Position numbers and translations under genes: made by a program. This document shows, piece by piece, positions 8,851 to 15,651 of a DNA stretch of 47,264 nt. The notes beneath the pieces are model-generated. The model was not told the DNA's origin. It saw nothing but the letters and a program-made list of their open reading frames with translations, and did no database searches. Every line of letters begins with the position of its first letter. Position 1 is the first letter of the stretch. This DNA is from Candidatus Binatia bacterium (GTDB taxonomy: Bacteria; Desulfobacterota; Binatia; Bin18): assembly GCA_963666315.2 (NCBI GenBank), contig CAXXHG010000029.1, positions 1-47,264 on the forward strand, read 5' to 3'.

Positions 8851-9105
8851 ACGCAATCTATCACCGTGTATTCAATGGACTATTGAGGCTTCTGCACGGC
8901 AGCAAAGGCTTTGCTGACAAAAAAAGGAATTCCATTCGAAGACATTGATGTCTCCGACGATCCGGCCCTGCGCGAAGAGATCGCCCAGCGCTCGGGCCAG
9001 CGAACCGTACCCCAAATTTTCATTGGTGACGAGTCGATCGGCGGATTCATGGAGTTGCAGACACTGGAAGTCAGCGGCGAGTTGGATGACCTCCTGGCTG
9101 ATTAA
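8851..9105 (+). CDS. grxC: Glutaredoxin 3-like protein, probable selenoprotein (active site U-G-F-C, TGA at 8884-8886)
   Basis: Frame reads (ACG)QSITVYSMDY-TGA-GFCTAAKALLTKKGIPFEDIDV...SGQRTVPQIFIGDESIGGFMEL. The TGA is codon 12, the first Cys position of the GrxC CxxC. GAGGAG RBS lies 8 nt before the ACG at 8851. Confidence 0.88.
8900..8916 (+). promoter_or_regulatory. Candidate bacterial SECIS hairpin of the glutaredoxin
   Basis: CAGCAAA-GGC-TTTGCTG; G-initiated loop with a 20-nt spacer after the TGA. Confidence 0.6.
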
Positions 9106-9214
9106 AGCATGGCGAAGCAACGCTTCACCCATCCTCTTTTCCCCCTCTCTTCGCTTTTCCTGTCTGAGAGACCTTGCTATATCTCCCCCTACATTAATGT
9201 AAGGAGGGGATGGC

Positions 9215-9523
9215 ATGGCGCTCTATCTCGATGAAGTTTGGCTAAAAGATCCGAGCCCGGAGCGGATGAAAGAATTCGTGCGCTTGATCGGCTCAGCCGC
9301 AAAGAATCCAGCCTCAGTCGGCGCGCCCCAGGAGGTGCGTTTTGTTGCCGGACCTTGGGCATCGAATGAAGAAGCAAAAGTCATATTCGTTGTTGATATC
9401 CCGGATCATACTCCGACCTACCAAATTTTCGGCAGGCTCCTTTCAACAGGCTTAGTCGAAAAACGCCGTCTCACTCCGATTGTTGAGTGGGGCGAGGTCG
9501 AGAAGATGGTGGAGCAATTGTAG
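9215..9523 (+). CDS. Small hypothetical protein, possibly DUF3303-like (dimeric alpha/beta barrel)
   Basis: 102 aa ORF with AGGAGG RBS; family guess from the GPW...VIFVVD...RLTPIV pattern. Confidence 0.6.
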   Translation: MALYLDEVWLKDPSPERMKEFVRLIGSAAKNPASVGAPQEVRFVAGPWASNEEAKVIFVVDIPDHTPTYQIFGRLLSTGLVEKRRLTPIVEWGEVEKMVEQL

Positions 9524-9566
9524 CGATCCATCATGAGGATTGACCCGGCTCAGGGCTCATCCACAG

Positions 9567-10025
9567 TCAGCCGCTGGGGGGAGGTTGGACCATCTCCAGA
9601 ACGATCTGGTCAGAGTCCCAAAAGTAGCAGGTGTAACCACCCTGGTTGACTCCTGCGGTGATGGCGTTGGGTGGCGAGAAGAAATGGACGCCATCGGCCT
9701 TGAGCTGCTCGTAACGAGAGTGGATGTCTGTGACTGTGAGTGCCAGGTGAGCCTCGCCGGGATTGCATATATCCGGCTTCTGCCGCTTTCCCTTTGGGTG
9801 AACGTACTCAACTAACTCAAGATCGTGGCTCGACACACCACGAGGCTGCCCCGGGATTATGAACTGGGCCACCTTTAGGTGGGCGTTCTCATATCCAACC
9901 AGGCGGCTCGTATATGCATTGGCCTGCTCCTGGACAAGCAGCAGCTCGAGTCCGAGCTGCTTGTAGAAGGCAATTGATCGCTCAAGGTCTGAGACGGTCA
10001 GGCTGAAGTGCCAGACGCCCAACAT
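9567..10025 (-). CDS. VOC/glyoxalase family protein
   Basis: MLGVWHFSLTVSDLERSIAFY...LELVEY...HLALTVTD...YFWDSDQIVLEMVQ. Confidence 0.85.
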   Translation of the reverse strand: MLGVWHFSLTVSDLERSIAFYKQLGLELLLVQEQANAYTSRLVGYENAHLKVAQFIIPGQPRGVSSHDLELVEYVHPKGKRQKPDICNPGEAHLALTVTDIHSRYEQLKADGVHFFSPPNAITAGVNQGGYTCYFWDSDQIVLEMVQPPPSG

Positions 10026-10065
10026 GGCAATCTCCTCATCGATACTTCCCCTCAGCTGCTTCCAC

Positions 10066-10839
10066 TCAGTCAAATGCCAGCCCGCCGCACACGTTGAGCG
10101 CTTGGCCGGTGACATAGCTCGCCGCATCCGACAGGAGAAACCAAATAGCCTCCGCAACCTCCTGGGGACTTTCGATGCGTCCCAGTGGAATAGTGTCAGT
10201 CAGACCGGCGAGCGATTCTTCTACGCTGATGCCTCGTCGTGCCGCACGTTCGACATGGATATCACGAGTCATTGCGGTCTCTACCACTCCGGGGCAGACC
10301 GCATTCACGTGGATGTCGGCAGAAGCAAGACTGACGGCAGCGGAGCGGACCAAACTGGTGAGACCGGCTTTGCTGGCTGCATAGTCGCTGCTATCGGCAC
10401 GTGGGCCGCGCCCGGCCACTGACGCAACCATCACAATACGGCCGGGCCGGTCAGCCTCGACAAGGTGACGAGCGATGGCCTGGATGCTGAAGAACGCGCC
10501 GGTCAGATTCACGTCGAACGTCCGACGCCACTAACGCGGCGACAGCTCAAGGAAGTCGCCGATGTCGACAATGCCGGCGGTATACACAAGCCGACTGACG
10601 ACACCGAACTCGGCACGCGCCTGATCAATCAAAGAGGCATCGGTCACGTCGACGCTTTAGGCAAGGGCCGGTGTGTTGAGACTCGCGACACTCGCCTCCG
10701 CGCGCACATAGTCGATATCAGCAGCAATAATAGGGAAACCTTGGTCGGCGATCTTGGCGACGACAGCGCTGCCTATGCCCCCGCACCCAATCACCACAGC
10801 TGCTCCGTCAATGAACTCAGGTGACTCATGCCCTGCCAT
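10066..10839 (-). pseudogene. SDR family oxidoreductase pseudogene with two in-frame nonsense codons
   Basis: GCGGIG Rossmann motif, YAASK, VNAVCPGVVET, GQALNVCGG all in one frame, interrupted by TAA (10657-10659) and TAG (10531-10533). Confidence 0.8.
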
Positions 10840-10953
10840 CGCATCCACTCCTAGCGCGACCAAGCGCTGTGACCGAACGACCTAGGCCTGTGAGTTTGGG
10901 CAGTCTACACAGAAAATCATATACGCCTCTCAGCAACAGTCTGTAGCTGCCCC

Positions 10954-11855
10954 TTAAGCCGACACTTCACACACCACGCAGACTTCAGGATCATTCTGTT
11001 CAGCCAGAATACGATCCTGTTCGGTTTGGTATTGTGGCGTATCAAGGCGTGAAATGCGCGCATCTCCGTCATTCATGGCTGAGTCTTTCCAGCTGTCATC
11101 TTCAGCCCAGCGAAAGGGCAGCTGGCTTGATTTTCCCCGGCTCTTTGAGCGAGCTGAACGCGTCGAGGGCTTCGATCAGAAATCTCTCGCTGGAGATCGG
11201 GCTCATGCAGTTTTCCGGTCGTGTGGCCGAGCTCATAGTCGAGAAAGGCGGCACGAGGCGGATGAACCGACTCCAGGATGTCCAGCGCACTGCCCATACA
11301 CAGGGTGGGGATGCCAGCCGCCTCAACAGTACGTGCGATCAGTCCCACGGACTGATGACACACGGGTCAGACAGGGACCAGAAGAGCCACATCGACCTGT
11401 TCAGCCCTCAATTGTTCGGTCAGTCGAGGGGCCAGTTCATCCCGCACTTTTCGCGAAGAATAAATTCCACCCATGAAAGTAAAAGCGTTGTCAGCCAGTT
11501 CACCGATCACGCCCTCTTTTTCTAATCGACGCAGCGTATCAATCGGAAAGACTACGTTGGGATCCTGCCGGGCGTCGGTTTGGTCATAGGCAAAATGAGC
11601 CGTACGCAAGTCAGCAGTTTTGACATCCCGGGGAATGACTCGAAACGAAAAATCGTCTTTGGTGTGAAAGGCCACCTGGCCGGTGACATAGATACCGCCG
11701 GAGGCGATCAGCCCGAGGCGACACTCCGCTAGCGGCTTTGTGAGAGGTGTCCACGGCGGGACGTCTTCATTACGCACCCATCGATACGTCTTATAGTCGA
11801 GCGCGGCGTAATTATCGGTAATCCGTTTGATGTAATCGACTGGCAGCTTCTGCAT
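10954..11855 (-). CDS. Glycine/sarcosine/betaine/D-proline reductase selenoprotein B (PrdB/GrdB)-family protein, U-P-V-C motif; two apparent +1 errors in the 3' part
   Basis: PWTPLTKPLAECRLGLIASGG, HFAYD, DPNVVFPIDTL, then VALLVPV-TGA-PVCHQSVGLIARTVEAAGIPT in frame (TGA 11367-11369). Removing single bases near 11181 and 11125 extends it to ...DTPQYQTEQDRILAEQNDPEVCVVCEVSA*. GGAGG RBS before ATG 11855. Confidence 0.88.
11332..11364 (-). promoter_or_regulatory. Candidate bacterial SECIS hairpin of the PrdB-like gene
   Basis: CGTGTG-TC-ATCAGTCC-GTG-GGACTGAT-CGCACG; perfect 8-bp upper stem and GU-initiated loop with an 18-nt spacer after the TGA. Confidence 0.75.
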
Positions 11856-11923
11856 CGGCACCTCCACAGGATTCAGGGTTCAATCTGTCAGTTTTCACCG
11901 GGGAAGACAACGGCTAAGCAGGT

Positions 11924-12272
11924 TTAAAAAGATTCCTCCAGGGGAGTGAAGCGTTCGAGTGCGGCAACCAACGGTTCAAGCTCGTTACTCACCGTATCCC
12001 AGACAACATCGTCATCAAAGACGGTATAGTCGTGTACGATTCTGTTCCGCATACCAATAATCAATTTCCAGGGAATGTGGGGGTTGGCTTTTCGAAATTT
12101 CGTGAGAGATGCCACGGGCAGCTTCTCCGATCACTTGAATGAGATGCACCAACGCCAAACGAAGCGTTTCATCCTGATCAAAAGCCACCCGGTCTTTGCC
12201 TTCGACTAATTGCAGCGCTTTTCGCGCCATATCCAGCATATAGCCGACGTATAACGCATCACCCTTCGGCAT
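11924..12272 (-). CDS. HepT-like HEPN (DUF86) ribonuclease toxin, +1 frameshift near 12097
   Basis: LQLVEGKDRVAFDQDETLRLALVHLIQVIGEAA joined to HIPWKLIIGMRNRIVHDY (RX4H motif) and VVWDTV. Confidence 0.88.
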
Positions 12273-12571
12273 ACTGCTCTTCTGCCTCAGCTAAAACTTC
12301 ATCCCGAATATGGCGATTCAACGACTTAAAAACTCAGCAGATCTACCTTCCGTCCGTCGAAAAATTGTTCAAGCTCTTCCTCAATGCTGCCAAGTCGAAT
12401 GAATCCAGGAACATTCCCAGGGACAAACTCGACCAATACGTCCACATCGCTGTCAGGTCGAAAATCTTCGCGTAGAACGGAGCCGAAAAGTGAAAGTTTG
12501 CGGATATGATGGCGACGGCAAAAGACTGCCAGTTGTTCTTTAGGGATAGATAGCTGGGCTTTCGATGTCAT
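12259..12571 (-). CDS. MNT (minimal nucleotidyltransferase) antitoxin, +1 frameshift in a T-run near 12330
   Basis: FCRRHHIRKLSLFGSVLREDFRPDSDVDVLVEF (GS-X10-DXD). Corrected end GRKVDLLSFKSLNRHIRDEVLAEAEEQYAEG* overlaps the HEPN start. Confidence 0.88.
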
Positions 12572-12574
12572 AGT

Positions 12575-12697
12575 CTCACCCGTGACCTTGGTTTCTTGGA
12601 GACAGACGCTGTCGGGGAATTGCTGAAGAGAAAGCCAGTCCAGCAATCGTTCTTTACGAGCACGGATTGAGTTGACATTCCAGGTGGCAATGCGCAC
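12575..12697 (-). pseudogene. xth: 5' stub (about 40 codons) of exodeoxyribonuclease III
   Basis: MRIATWNVNSIRARKERLLDWL...VCLQETKV is the typical ExoIII N-terminus; the rest of the gene is absent. Confidence 0.85.
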
Positions 12698-12719
12698 GGG
12701 CTCAAGAACGCCGCCTTTT

Positions 12720-14327
12720 CTATGCTGCTGTAGGCGGCGTCTCAGCGTCAGCTAAGAGAGCCCCCTGGAAACCAATCTTGCCGTAGGTGAGACCCGCAAA
12801 GGCCGGGACGGTTTTGGTCAACTCGCCAAACACATCTGAAATGGAAACCGAGTCTGGACCGCCCAGCTGGGTACTGAGCAGGGCAAGGGCCTCCCAACCT
12901 GCTTTGGCTTCTCCCGGTGGTGGAAATGCTGCTGAGAGGCCGCTGAACGCGGCCGGCATGGTTGGTACACGTGCCGTCTGTCTCAGGCGCAGCGCCGATG
13001 GGCAGGACGACGTAAGCGTACTCCGTCGTATCGTTATAGTCTGTGTCGAGCAGAATAACTGTCGCATCGCTCAGTGCTTTGTCTATGCGCTCTTGACCAA
13101 ACGTCGTCACTAAGTCCGCGCCAAAGACGAGCACGACTTTGACCGTCCCATTTTCTACTGCGGACAGAACCGCTTCCGCTTCTCCCCCCCCATTGAGCAG
13201 GCCCAAGCTTTTGAGTCCTTGTGTATTCGGGTTCTTATCAGCATGGATGAGAAAGTCATCGTGGAAAGCGTCAGCAGGGGACCAGGACAGACCGGCAATG
13301 TGAGTCGTACCGACTTGTTCTTTGAGCAGCCGAGACACAAGAAAGGCTTCTTCGTTGGTTGCCTTTGCCCCCACAATTGCCGCAATGGCAGCAGGGCCGT
13401 GTTCTTCTTTCGCTTGGAATAGTATGTTGGCGGCCTTTTTTGTGGCCTCAGCCCACGAGGCCACCTCAAAGGACGATGCACCCCGCACTAACGGATTGGG
13501 AATCCGGCTGTCCTGCTGGAACGACTTATACGAGTTGCGCCCTTCGGTCACACATCCAATACTCATTCACCGCCAGATTCTGGCGCGGCCGAAAGCGGTA
13601 TATCTCACCCTGGCGGTGGTAGATATCGATATTGCACCCAGTGGCACAGCGCGTACACGTTGACGGGGTTTTTTCGAGGTACCACACGCGTGACTTGAAA
13701 CGAAAGTCTTTACTGGTCAGCGCACCGACCGGACACACGTCTACGACATTGCCGGAGTACGGATTGTCCAGTTTCTTGCCCGGGAAGAGACTAATGCGAG
13801 AATGATCGCCCCGGTCAAATATCCCCAGCTCGCCCGTTTTCGTCACTTCGTCCAGAAAGCGGGTGCAGCGGGCACACAAGATGCAGCGTTCCTCGTCGAG
13901 CACGACTTCCGGCCCAAGATCAATAACCTTACGTTTATGAACCTTGGCCTCCAGCCCCATCTCGCTCGTATAGGCCCCGTACAGCATGTAATAGTCTTGC
14001 AGTTTACATTCGCCGGCTTGGTCACAAATCGGGCCAATCAATCGGATGGTTAATCAGGATAAATTCGAGCACGGCCGCCTGCGCCTGCTTGGCTCGTTCG
14101 CTATTGGTTTTCACCACCATGCCGTCGGAAACACGGGTATTACACCCAATCTGGAGCTTGGGCATTTTTTCAATTTCCACCAAGCACATGCGGCAATTGC
14201 CCGAGATGCTCAGCCCGGGGTGGTAGCAGTAGTGGGGAACTTCAATGCCTGCCTGTTCGGCAGCCTGGATGACGTTTAGACCGTCTTCTACTGTAATCTC
14301 TTGACCATCAATCTCTAGCGTGGGCAT
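12720..14327 (-). CDS. nuoG: NADH-quinone oxidoreductase subunit G (short type), with three apparent +1 frameshifts near 14034, 13546 and 12939
   Basis: PHYCYHPGLSISGNCRMCLVE, NHPID(C)PICDQAGECKLQD, RCILCARCTRF, DVCPVGAL, CTRCATGC, TNHAGRVQR; the pieces rejoin by removing one base each. Confidence 0.92.
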
Positions 14328-14358
14328 GAAAACCTCTTGGGCAAAATTCTTGGGATAA

Positions 14359-15651
14359 CTAAGCAGCGTCCGACTGCAGCCCGGATTTCTTCAGCGGGCA
14401 GCCGGCGTGGGTGATATGGGCGACAAACTCGTCGCGAAATTTTGTCAGAAAGCTTTGGGTCGGCATAGCCGCAGCATCAGCCAACACACACACCGTGTTG
14501 CCCATCATGTTGTTACAGATCCGATCGATCAACTCGAGATCGTCGGCTTTGGCGTTGCCCTCTTCGAGCTGGACCAGAAGTTTGTGCAGCCAGCCGGTCC
14601 CCTCGCGACACGGAGAACACTGGCCGCAGGATTCATGATGATAGAAGCGATCGATAATCTCTAGCGCACGGACCATACAGGTGTCTTCGTCCATGACCAT
14701 GATACCTGCGGTTCCCAGAAACGCGCCGATAGCTCGCATGGAATCAAAATCCATGTGGACATCAATCTCATCTGGTGTCAAAACGGGAAACGACGAACCA
14801 GCCGGCATGACGGCCTTGAGTTCTTTCCCCCCACGGATGCCGCCGGCATAGTCATAGATCACTTCGCGTAAGGGCAGGCCCATGGGTAGCTCATACAACC
14901 CCGGTTTCTCCACGTGGCCGCTCACGCCGTAAATCTTGGGACCAGGGCCGCTTTCGGGGCCAATAGACTTAAACCACTCCGGGCCGTTTTTGATAACGGA
15001 CGGCAGGCAGGCCAGGGTCTCCACATTATTGACAATAGTCGGGCAGCCAAACAGGCCATAGACCGCTGGGAACGGCGGTTTGATGCGTGGATAGGCACGT
15101 TTACCCTCAATCGACTCAATCAGTCCGGTCTCTTCACCACAGATATATGCCCCAGCCCCTCTGTGGACATACACCTCAAGATCAAATCCTGTTCCAAAGA
15201 TGTCTTTGCCCAGCAAGCCCTTGGCGTATGCATCGGCAAGGGCTTCTTCAAGACACTTCGCGCCGTAGGCAAACTCTCCACGAATATAGATGTATGCCGT
15301 GTGGGCATTAATTGCGTAGCACGTGATGAGCATGCCCTCTAAGAGAATATGCGTGTTCCACTCTATAATAGCCCGATCCTTAAAGGCGCCTGGCTCGCTC
15401 TCGTCCGCGTTGCAACACAGATAGACGGGCTTATCTGAGTCCTTGGGTAAGAAACCCCACTTTACGCCTGCTGCAAACCCCGCGCCACCTCGCCCACGTA
15501 GATTCGAGGCCTTGACCTGCGCCGTCACTTCTTCGGGTTTGAGCGTCGTGAGCGCCGTGCGGGCCGCCGCATATCCGTCATGGGCTAAATACACGTCGAG
15601 CTTGTGAATGTCAGGGATATTCTCGTGGCGCAGCAATACATTTTCAGCCAT
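14359..15651 (-). CDS. nuoF: NADH-quinone oxidoreductase subunit F
   Basis: LRGRGGAGF, CNADESEPG, GAGAYICGEETGLIESIEG, HESCGQCSPCREG. Confidence 0.96.
   Translation of the reverse strand: MAENVLLRHENIPDIHKLDVYLAHDGYAAARTALTTLKPEEVTAQVKASNLRGRGGAGFAAGVKWGFLPKDSDKPVYLCCNADESEPGAFKDRAIIEWNTHILLEGMLITCYAINAHTAYIYIRGEFAYGAKCLEEALADAYAKGLLGKDIFGTGFDLEVYVHRGAGAYICGEETGLIESIEGKRAYPRIKPPFPAVYGLFGCPTIVNNVETLACLPSVIKNGPEWFKSIGPESGPGPKIYGVSGHVEKPGLYELPMGLPLREVIYDYAGGIRGGKELKAVMPAGSSFPVLTPDEIDVHMDFDSMRAIGAFLGTAGIMVMDEDTCMVRALEIIDRFYHHESCGQCSPCREGTGWLHKLLVQLEEGNAKADDLELIDRICNNMMGNTVCVLADAAAMPTQSFLTKFRDEFVAHITHAGCPLKKSGLQSDAA

What the first reader, a model, noticed from the sequence alone, without database searches (positions are those of the whole stretch)
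10954..11855. Orphan PrdB/GrdB-family selenoprotein with UPVC site, strong SECIS and C-terminal CxxC tail
Seen: two adjacent ORFs are one frame joined by a TGA in LLVPV-U-PVCHQSVGL, with a long hairpin right after it. After two base corrections the protein ends in EVCVVCEVSA. No prdA, grdA/C/D/E or trx genes are in the window. Known: PrdB/GrdB are the Sec subunits of Stickland proline/glycine reductases and need those partners. Inference: a stand-alone reductase of unknown substrate, with the CxxC tail possibly acting as a built-in resolving or metal site.
Basis: partly seen in the sequence, partly recalled or inferred. Interest (0 to 1): 0.75.

Follow-up and report, generated by a model that had tools for sequence, protein, structure and literature searches.

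The report
Stand-alone PrdB-like selenoprotein gene, intact
This is a real, probably intact gene for a selenocysteine-containing enzyme related to proline/glycine reductase subunit B that works without the usual partner subunits; it belongs to a widespread family catalogued years ago but never studied biochemically, and carries a conserved cysteine-pair tail.

Summary
On the minus strand, 11855 to 10954, lies a PrdB-like (Pfam GRDB) gene with an in-frame TGA at 11369-11367 (LLVPV-U-PVCHQ), followed by a conserved hairpin.

The two frame breaks are single extra bases in this assembly. Contigs from an otherwise letter-identical public run lack them, and all 10 same-genus relatives read in one frame. 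Without them the gene gives 299 codons ending EVCVVCEVSA.

The genome (Candidatus Binatia, by relatives' record titles) has tRNA-Sec, selA, selB and selD. PrdA/GrdE and GrdA families were found in 0 of 28 genomes of the genus, so the protein stands alone.

All 80 nearest homologues carry TGA at this site, and 66 of the 79 complete ones carry a C-terminal CxxC. The tail is predicted disordered and was lost in about four Sec-bearing lineages. No neighbouring gene is conserved across phyla, and no related solved structure was found.

Best reading: a thiol/selenol oxidoreductase of unknown substrate whose tail may shuttle reducing equivalents. That step is inferred.

The family has been counted as "proline reductase PrdB" in marine selenoproteome surveys since 2005. 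This is therefore a new member of a known but uncharacterised kind, of moderate interest.

The parts
10954..11855 (-). PrdB-like selenoprotein gene, start ATG to stop TAA. As assembled it holds two spurious extra bases; without them it is 299 codons.
   Evidence: PF07355 59 bits against a cut-off of 22; TIGR04483 154.5 bits against a cut-off of 300
11861..11865 (-). Shine-Dalgarno-like GGAGG, 5 nt upstream of the ATG
   Evidence: read from the sequence
11367..11369 (-). In-frame TGA read as selenocysteine (residue 163, motif U-P-V-C)
   Evidence: TGA at this site in 80 of 80 nearest homologous loci
11358..11360 (-). Codon of Cys166, the invariant partner in the UxxC motif
   Evidence: invariant in 78 aligned sequences
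11332..11364 (-). SECIS-like hairpin: lower stem, 2-nt bulge, 8-bp upper stem, apical GUG
11180..11182 (.). Run of three A on the + strand; one is an extra base of the assembly and causes the first frame break
11124..11125 (.). GG on the + strand; one is an extra base of the assembly and causes the second frame break
10969..10980 (-). C-terminal C-V-V-C, four residues before the stop
   Evidence: CxxC tail in 66 of 79 complete homologues; tail residues 290-298 have pLDDT below 50 in the model of the relative's protein
10066..10875 (-). Downstream short-chain dehydrogenase gene with two in-frame stops (TAA at 10659-10657, TAG at 10533-10531): a pseudogene in this strain
   Evidence: the X21 contig over 10313-11364 shows no differing letter
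9573..10037 (-). Glyoxalase/VOC-family gene, next downstream on the same strand
11924..12697 (-). HepT-like / nucleotidyltransferase (MNT) pair directly upstream. Relatives carry a different gene here, an endonuclease/exonuclease/phosphatase-family gene in 14 loci.
12748..15651 (-). NuoG-like and NuoF-like iron-sulfur/flavoprotein genes further upstream. They are linked to the selenoprotein gene in this genus and in some other Binatia genomes (L059, L060, L062, L067), but not in other phyla or in G019, G020 and G028.

Best explanation
The locus encodes one intact protein of 299 residues, a stand-alone member of the GrdB/PrdB (Pfam GRDB) superfamily.

Shown:
- UGA at codon 163 sits in a conserved, continuous reading frame and is followed by a conserved hairpin.
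- The genome has the full Sec-insertion machinery.
- The two frame breaks are extra bases of this assembly.
- The partner subunits of Stickland reductases are absent from the whole genus: the PrdA/GrdE pyruvoyl proprotein family and GrdA.

Inferred:
- The hairpin recruits SelB so that Sec is inserted.
- Sec163 and the invariant Cys166 lie between a beta-strand and the start of a helix in the model. They would form a selenol/thiol redox pair that cycles through a selenenylsulfide while reducing an unknown substrate.
- The disordered C-terminal CxxC, which sits about 10 residues after the conserved QYQxEEDR motif, would swing in to re-reduce that bond. It would then itself be reduced by a thioredoxin-type donor. 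Recalled examples of such tails are ribonucleotide reductase R1, some MsrA enzymes and thioredoxin reductase. I put this last step at about 0.35.

The protein is not a D-proline or glycine reductase subunit.
For: Gene and decoding:
- TGA lies in frame with homology on both sides.
- 80 of 80 nearest homologous loci have TGA at the site.
- The hairpin is kept in 72 of 72 sequences and has 2 compensatory pairs.
- tRNA-Sec lies next to selA (592.8 bits); selB scores 378 bits and selD 308 bits, all above their cut-offs.
- An earlier scan noted two other candidate selenoprotein genes in this genome (not checked here).

Intactness:
- X21 contigs with 0 differing letters lack both extra bases. They also lack 7 further single bases between 9185 and 14034.
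- Removing the 4 of those that lie in the NuoG-like and HepT genes restores their frames: 272 to 532 aa and 87 to 117 aa.
- 10 of 10 same-genus relatives have one frame of 298-300 codons.

Stand-alone status:
- PF09338 and PF04723 hit 0 of 28 genus genomes. The PF09338 search does ring in G035.
- TIGR04483 scores 154.5 bits here and 174.1 bits for the intact orthologue, against a cut-off of 300.
- No neighbouring gene cluster is shared across phyla among the 80 loci.

Tail:
- CxxC is present in 66 of 79 complete homologues. It starts 10 residues after the DR motif in 51 of them, and 2 or 4 residues follow it in 52.
- It is also present in 9 of the 14 more distant C-terminal pieces fetched.
- pLDDT is below 50 for residues 290-298 in a model with mean pLDDT 92.1.
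Against: - Nothing here shows Sec incorporation, expression or any activity.
- 13 of 79 Sec-type homologues lack the CxxC. They include members of the same genus (L050, L056, L058) and the Entotheonella clade. The tree needs 5 changes of the tail state, so the tail cannot be essential for catalysis.
- Cys- and Thr-type homologues lack the tail (0 of the 14 fetched, not counting two more distant fusion proteins that also lack it). They form essentially one clade, so only 1-2 independent contrasts exist and no co-evolution can be claimed.
- The hairpin matches no Rfam family, even at E = 10. Over 86 nt the fold is no better than shuffles, z = -0.35.
- The downstream dehydrogenase gene is a true pseudogene, so some decay of the neighbourhood is real.
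- Logan contigs show that the uninterrupted form is present. They do not show that the interrupted form is absent.
Confidence: 0.8

Rival explanations
1. The gene is a decaying pseudogene. The two frameshifts are real, so only a scrambled product of about 260 residues, or none, is made.
For: The window as deposited has both frame breaks. The adjacent dehydrogenase gene has two nonsense codons that the independent contigs confirm. The closest relatives L036 and L037 lack the dehydrogenase and glyoxalase genes downstream.
Against: All X21 contig depth at 11124 and 11180 lacks the extra base (7.97 of 7.97), in a contig otherwise identical to the window. Runs X2 and X22 lack them too. Seven more single-base insertions within the same 5 kb are also missing from the contigs, and removing those in the NuoG-like and HepT genes restores their frames. 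This points to a local assembly fault. The rest of the gene shows no stop or damage and is 94% identical to the intact orthologue.
Confidence: 0.07
2. The C-terminal CxxC is a metal site rather than a redox shuttle. For example, two tails of a dimer, or the tail with Cys166/His167, could bind Zn or Fe, giving a structural or regulatory role.
For: CxxC is a common metal knuckle (general knowledge). The tail is conserved in 66 of 79 homologues at a fixed distance from the core. It is dispensable in some lineages, as accessory structural sites often are.
Against: There is only one CxxC per chain, and no second conserved Cys or His pair in the C-terminal extension (invariant list). The tail is predicted disordered. 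No evidence here separates the two roles.
Confidence: 0.15
3. It is a genuine D-proline (or glycine/betaine) reductase B subunit, working with a diverged partner that the family models do not recognise.
For: The best family match is PrdB (TIGR04483, E = 3e-45). The orthologue is 35% identical over 217 residues to a representative that passes the PrdB cut-off. JGI annotation calls many homologues PrdB.
Against: The score is about half the curated cut-off. PF09338 and PF04723 hit 0 of 28 genomes, while the same PF09338 search finds the family in G035. No conserved neighbouring gene exists. A conserved extension of about 49 residues follows the point where the PrdB-type protein ends. Only 1 of 48 related representatives scanned passes the PrdB cut-off.
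Confidence: 0.03
4. TGA is an ordinary stop, and two separate small proteins are made.
For: Gene callers cut most database homologues at about 165-220 residues: 108 of the 120 listed.
Against: Coding conservation continues in the same frame across the TGA in 80 of 80 loci. Cys replaces it in homologues. One listed entry has W at the site, as expected if TGA was read by another code. The hairpin and the Sec machinery are present.
Confidence: 0.02

Closest known systems
PrdB, the selenoprotein subunit of clostridial D-proline reductase (NCBIfam TIGR04483)
   Same: Best-scoring family. The two proteins are colinear over about 217 residues at 35% identity. Both have a [U/C]xxC-H motif after a beta-strand, and Sec is encoded by TGA.
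   Different: The score is 154-174 bits against a cut-off of 300. No PrdA (PF09338) occurs in any of the 28 genus genomes. The motif is UPVCHQ rather than CGTCHR in the PrdB-type representative. The protein carries a conserved C-terminal extension of about 49 residues ending in CxxC. It occurs in Binatia and other groups not known for Stickland fermentation; that last point is recalled, not tested.
GrdB / GrdF / GrdH, the substrate-specific selenoprotein B of glycine, sarcosine and betaine reductases (PF07355, TIGR01917, NF040794, NF040795)
   Same: The Pfam GRDB domain is matched above its cut-off (59 bits against 22). The UxxC motif is shared.
   Different: Only profile positions of about 200-385 out of 431-435 are matched. 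Scores are 59-67 bits against cut-offs of 602-800. The N-terminal half of GrdB is missing. No GrdA or GrdE was found in the genus.
'Proline reductase PrdB' selenoprotein family of marine metagenome surveys (Sargasso Sea, 42 genes; GOS, 235 genes, UxxC, pfam07355)
   Same: Same Pfam family, same UxxC motif and the same habit of being cut at TGA. The family is described as abundant in oxic marine samples (PMC1088965 and PMC2398784; I read the passages and tables found by term search).
   Different: Those papers treat the family as proline reductase. In the passages I saw they mention neither a missing PrdA nor a C-terminal CxxC. 'PrdA' does not occur at all in the GOS paper. I could not compare their sequences with this one.
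Enzymes with a flexible C-terminal cysteine or selenocysteine tail that re-reduces the active site (class Ia ribonucleotide reductase R1, some MsrA enzymes, mammalian thioredoxin reductase). Recalled knowledge, not tested.
   Same: This is a resemblance in how it may work only: a disordered tail bearing a redox pair close to the C-terminus, next to a catalytic redox pair in the core.
   Different: No sequence or fold relationship. The shuttle role here is inference.

Membership tests
GRDB superfamily (Pfam PF07355) | Match to the family HMM above the gathering score | tested here: met
   59 bits against a cut-off of 22 for the part upstream of the TGA. PF07355 is also found at this place in the genome-wide search.
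GRDB superfamily (Pfam PF07355) | UxxC / CxxC redox motif at the conserved position | tested here: met
   U163-P-V-C166. Cys166 is invariant in 78 sequences. TGA is present in 80 of 80 loci.
D-proline reductase PrdB (TIGR04483, equivalog) | HMM score at or above the curated 300 bits | tested here: not met
   154.5 bits for the window reading and 174.1 bits for the intact orthologue P0122. A true PrdB-type representative, P0158, scores 453 bits.
D-proline reductase PrdB (TIGR04483, equivalog) | Pyruvoyl proprotein partner PrdA (PF09338) encoded in the genome | tested here: not met
   No match in the window's own genome, which is 92% complete. 0 of 28 genus genomes have a match. The same search rings in G035 as a positive control.
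Glycine/sarcosine/betaine reductase protein B (TIGR01917, NF040794, NF040795) | Full-length match above the cut-offs, including the N-terminal half | tested here: not met
   59-67 bits against cut-offs of 602-800. Only the C-terminal part of the profiles is matched.
Glycine/sarcosine/betaine reductase protein B (TIGR01917, NF040794, NF040795) | GrdA selenoprotein A (PF04723) in the genome | tested here: inconclusive
   0 of 28 genus genomes have a match. However, this family rang in no genome searched, so there is no positive control.
NCBIfam TIGR01918 (glycine/betaine/sarcosine/D-proline family reductase selenoprotein B, subfamily model) | Score at or above 65.45 bits | tested here: inconclusive
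   62.1 bits for the window's frame-1 reading and 66.3 bits for the intact orthologue. The result sits on the border.
Bacterial selenoprotein genes (SelB/SECIS-dependent UGA recoding) | Conserved in-frame TGA with Cys in some homologues | tested here: met
   80 of 80 loci have TGA. 9 of the 11 full-length database homologues fetched have Cys at the site, and the other 2 have Thr.
Bacterial selenoprotein genes (SelB/SECIS-dependent UGA recoding) | Stem-loop just 3' of the UGA, supported by covariation | tested here: met
   10 pairs, 2 of them with compensatory changes, across 72 sequences. The hairpin folds at -18.5 kcal/mol and 6 of 200 shuffles fold as well. It matches no Rfam model.
Bacterial selenoprotein genes (SelB/SECIS-dependent UGA recoding) | tRNA-Sec, SelA, SelB and SelD in the genome | tested here: met
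   all protein matches are above their curated cut-offs.
Bacterial selenoprotein genes (SelB/SECIS-dependent UGA recoding) | Selenium actually incorporated into the protein | not testable with these tools
   This needs 75Se labelling or mass spectrometry.

The most novel reading that the evidence does not exclude
These orphan PrdB-like proteins may be a self-contained class of selenoenzyme. A C-terminal extension and CxxC tail would have replaced the PrdA/PrdC/GrdA partners. The UxxC centre alone would then carry out a reductive cleavage, or a detoxifying reduction, of an abundant small molecule in oxic marine and soil bacteria. That would explain why 'PrdB' ranks among the commonest selenoproteins in the surface ocean, where Stickland fermentation is not expected.
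Probability: 0.2. Interest if true: 0.7.

Novelty: new member of a known kind. Interest (0 to 1): 0.42.

Why it matters
PrdB-like genes are among the most frequent selenoprotein genes in ocean metagenomes: third in the Sargasso Sea survey and 235 genes in GOS. They are still labelled 'proline reductase', although this work shows that a whole genus carrying them lacks the partner subunits that chemistry needs.

Three results make the family easier to approach experimentally:
- The family stands alone.
- It is strongly conserved across phyla, at 62-93% identity among the nearest 66 Sec-type sequences aligned.
- Most Sec-type members end in a flexible CxxC.

Together these give a concrete hypothesis, tail-assisted recycling of a selenenylsulfide, and a defined protein to express.

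There is also a practical point. Gene callers cut these genes at the TGA, and in this assembly nine single-base insertions within 5 kb make several intact genes look like pseudogenes.

Tried and rejected
- Pseudogene reading. I took it seriously because six neighbouring genes looked broken. I rejected it for this gene after laying public contigs on the stretch and testing base removal. It stands for the dehydrogenase gene.
- Functional link to the NuoF/NuoG-like genes upstream. They are linked in the genus and in a few other Binatia genomes (L059, L060, L062, L067). They lie on other contigs in G019, G020 and G028 and are absent from the loci of other phyla. I dropped this idea.
- Conserved neighbours. 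Clustering 852 ORFs from 80 loci gave no shared partner. Glyoxalase/VOC genes recur in three unrelated contexts (14 of 80 loci) and luciferase-like monooxygenases in 10 of 80. This is too weak to build on.
- Sec / CxxC co-evolution. Raw counts look striking: 66 of 79 Sec-type against 0 of 14 Cys/Thr-type. The tree gives only 1-2 independent contrasts, so I do not claim it.
- Solved structures. The sequence search found nothing better than E = 0.17. Foldseek found nothing at E <= 0.001. The wide structural search gave a best Z of 8.3 to generic Rossmann-like / LacI-type folds, which is background level.
- Rfam. No SECIS or other family matched at the hairpin.
- Protein Atlas. A natural Cys-type homologue returned only GRDB-labelled clusters.
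- Fusion proteins. N-terminal AMP-binding, kinase or HTH domains occur in more distant Cys-type relatives. They gave no usable functional lead.
- Literature. Searches for 'PrdB-like' with selenoprotein (0 papers), PrdB with 'absence of PrdA', Binatota with selenocysteine, and selenoprotein B with C-terminal, CxxC and orphan found no paper on the orphan status or the tail. This covers only the held library.
- Habitat.
- Complex prediction was not run, because the report claims no binding.

Full report
**What is in the sequence**

On the minus strand an ATG at 11855-11853, preceded by GGAGG at 11865-11861, opens a frame that reaches TGA at 11369-11367. The same frame continues as PVCHQSVGLIAR... 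The part upstream of the TGA matches Pfam GRDB (PF07355) at 59 bits against a cut-off of 22. The read-through product matches NCBIfam PrdB (TIGR04483) at 154.5 bits, below the curated 300.

Right after the TGA lies an interrupted 14-bp hairpin at 11364-11332. It folds at -18.5 kcal/mol with z = -2.2, and 6 of 200 shuffles fold as well. A longer 86-nt stretch is no better than shuffles. No Rfam family matches.

**The two 'base corrections'**

Homology to full-length relatives jumps from frame 1 to frame 2 to frame 0 within about 60 nt. Aligned to a same-genus relative (G009, 96% mean column identity), the window has one extra T (TT to TTT) and one extra C (C to CC).

I first suspected a pseudogene. 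The neighbouring dehydrogenase, HepT and NuoG-like genes also looked broken.

Laying public contigs on 9000-14400 settled the point.
- Run X21 holds 0.90 of the sampled words, and its contigs show 0 differing letters across this gene.
- X21 lacks one base at 11124 and one at 11180, in all the depth there (7.97 of 7.97).
- X21 also lacks one base at each of 9185, 12095, 12328, 12698, 12938, 13546 and 14034.
- Runs X2 and X22, from other studies, also lack the base at 11180. X2 lacks the one at 11124 as well.

A script removed the two bases. The result is 299 codons with the TGA at codon 163 as the only internal stop. It ends DPEVCVVCEVSA and is identical to the relative's protein in 281 of 299 aligned columns. 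Removing the other listed bases restores the NuoG-like frame (272 to 532 aa) and the HepT frame (87 to 117 aa).

The frame breaks are therefore local assembly errors. One caveat remains: contigs show that the uninterrupted form is present, not that the other form is absent.

The dehydrogenase gene is different. It carries TAA at 10659 and TAG at 10533, and the X21 contig has the same letters, so it is a real pseudogene.

**Relatives**

All 10 same-genus loci I read have one frame of 298-300 codons with TGA at codon 163. Nine of the 10 end in CxxC; G016 has a single Cys.

A database search gave 564 homologues at E <= 0.001. Of the 120 listed, 108 are 165-219 residues long, meaning they are cut at or near the TGA.

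Of the 11 full-length homologues fetched, 9 have Cys and 2 have Thr at the site. One 195-residue entry has W, as expected if TGA was read by another code.

A scan of one genome per species found 497 relatives. Record titles place the nearest ones in Candidatus Binatia. Further ones come from Methylomirabilota, Chloroflexota, Entotheonella, Deferrimicrobia and various 'delta/proteobacteria' MAGs. All 80 best loci have TGA at the site.

The hairpin's 10 pairs are kept in 72 distinct sequences. Two pairs carry compensatory changes: UA 48 / CG 18 with 6 broken, and GC 71 / AU 1.

**Sec machinery and partners**

The genome (4.99 Mb, 47 contigs, 92% complete) has:
- tRNA-Sec next to selA (592.8 bits);
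- selB at 378 bits;
- selD at 308 bits.

The PrdA/GrdE family PF09338 and the GrdA family PF04723 give no match in this genome or in any of 28 genomes of the genus, many of them single contigs.

The PF09338 search does work. It rings in one of five other genomes that carry the orphan (G035), far from the orphan gene there. PF04723 rang nowhere, so that negative has no positive control.

Thioredoxin genes exist, but none lies on this contig.

**The C-terminal tail**

Of 79 complete Sec-type homologues, 66 have CxxC in the tail, 4 have one Cys and 9 have none. The 80th locus runs off its contig. The pair starts 10 residues after the conserved QYQxEEDR motif in 51 cases, and is followed by 4 residues in 31 cases or by 2 in 21. 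Nine of 14 more distant C-terminal pieces also carry it.

An AlphaFold2 model of the relative's protein was built from a 78-sequence alignment. It has mean pLDDT 92.1 and pTM 0.91. Residue 163 sits between strand 156-160 and helix 164-179, and residues 290-298 are left below pLDDT 50.

None of the 14 Cys/Thr-type full-length homologues has the tail. On a tree they form essentially one clade. Sec/Cys changes state only twice, and only 1-2 independent contrasts exist, so no co-evolution can be claimed. The tail state changes 5 times, with losses inside Sec-type lineages.

**Family placement**

A profile search of 1.84 billion representatives found 3155 proteins at E <= 0.001 and 181 at E <= 1e-30.

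Of 48 related representatives scanned, only one (P0158, 241 aa, 453 bits) passes the PrdB cut-off. The intact orthologue scores 174.1 bits, and 66.3 bits on the broad subfamily model TIGR01918, whose cut-off is 65.45.

Against P0158 the orthologue is 35% identical over 217 residues, and continues for about 49 residues after the PrdB-type protein ends.

No solved structure is related by sequence or clearly by fold. Foldseek gave nothing at E <= 0.001, and the best wide-search Z was 8.3 to generic Rossmann-like folds.

**Gene context**

In the genus the order is NuoF-like, NuoG-like, a variable gene, the selenoprotein gene, a dehydrogenase, then a glyoxalase-family gene. The variable gene is an endonuclease/exonuclease/phosphatase-family gene in 14 loci; here it is a HepT/MNT pair. 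Outside the genus the neighbours differ, and no cluster is shared across phyla.

**How it most likely works**

Shown: one continuous conserved gene, a conserved TGA and hairpin, the Sec machinery, no Stickland partners, and a conserved disordered CxxC tail.

Inferred: Sec163 and Cys166 form the catalytic pair, as the UxxC of PrdB does (recalled knowledge). The substrate is unknown. The tail re-reduces the selenenylsulfide and is itself reduced by a thioredoxin-type donor; I put that last step at about 0.35. A metal-binding role for the tail cannot be excluded.

**Comparison with the literature**

Term searches of two selenoproteome surveys showed passages and tables listing 'proline reductase PrdB' with a UxxC motif. 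It was the third most abundant selenoprotein family in the Sargasso Sea (42 genes; PMC1088965) and had 235 genes in GOS (PMC2398784).

I also saw passages of three further papers (PMC13188914, PMC9312934, PMC1794560). They list D-proline reductase among known families. The last names 'proline reductase' selenoproteins in Anaeromyxobacter and Geobacter.

In none of the passages seen, and in none of five library searches, did I find the orphan status or the CxxC tail discussed. Supplements were not opened.

**Verdict**

The gene is a new member of a catalogued but biochemically unstudied family. The added value lies in three points: the demonstration that the partners are absent, the breadth of the tail's conservation, and the correction of the apparent pseudogene.

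Noticed in passing
window 9185, 11124, 11180, 12095, 12328, 12698, 12938, 13546, 14034: Nine single extra bases in the assembly within about 5 kb. All are absent from otherwise identical contigs of run X21. They make the HepT, NuoG-like and PrdB-like genes look frameshifted, while genes elsewhere in the window (for example the 1545-aa GltB) are intact.
   Followed up: yes
window 10066-10875 (-): Short-chain dehydrogenase gene with two in-frame stops (TAA at 10659, TAG at 10533). The independent contig confirms them, so this is a genuine pseudogene. In run X2 position 10659 reads G, which gives a sense codon.
   Followed up: partly
G000 C41:32677-33339, C43:506599-507228, C46:92902-93528: Three further PrdB-like genes in the same genome. 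Each has one in-frame TGA and each scores below the PrdB cut-off. Two have a U-P-L-C motif and a long extra C-terminal domain. One has U-P-V-C-H-Q and no CxxC tail. The C41 copy changes frame at a run of prolines, possibly another assembly error.
   Followed up: partly
window 11924-12697 (-), remnant at 12569-12703: A HepT-like / nucleotidyltransferase (MNT) toxin-antitoxin-type pair sits where same-genus relatives carry another gene. In 14 loci that gene is a complete endonuclease/exonuclease/phosphatase-family gene, of which only an N-terminal remnant remains here.
   Followed up: partly
G000 C28:39602-40519: The selD match lies in an open frame of 761 aa, far longer than a usual SelD. This suggests a fusion with another domain.
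   Followed up: no
P0003 and P0010: Two full-length database homologues have Thr, not Cys or Sec, at the Sec position (LVPV-T-PVCHQ). It is unclear whether these are real redox-dead variants or artefacts.
   Followed up: no
P0142, P0153, P0254, P0173: More distant Cys-type PrdB-like domains occur fused behind AMP-binding (acyl-CoA synthetase-like), protein kinase or HTH domains.
   Followed up: partly
L036, L037, L057, L059, L061, L063: Several MAG records whose gene is 74-93% identical to the Binatia protein are titled 'uncultured Enterobacteriaceae bacterium'. These look like mislabelled bins.
   Followed up: no
window 26204-31134 (-): A complete rRNA operon segment: 23S, two tRNAs in the spacer, and 16S.
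   Followed up: no
L035 / L012 (G009) tail against window 10954-10990: The closest relative has a 10-nt insertion, apparently a duplication, in the tail. It shifts the stop yet keeps the CxxC (ends ...EACVVCEVV).
   Followed up: partly
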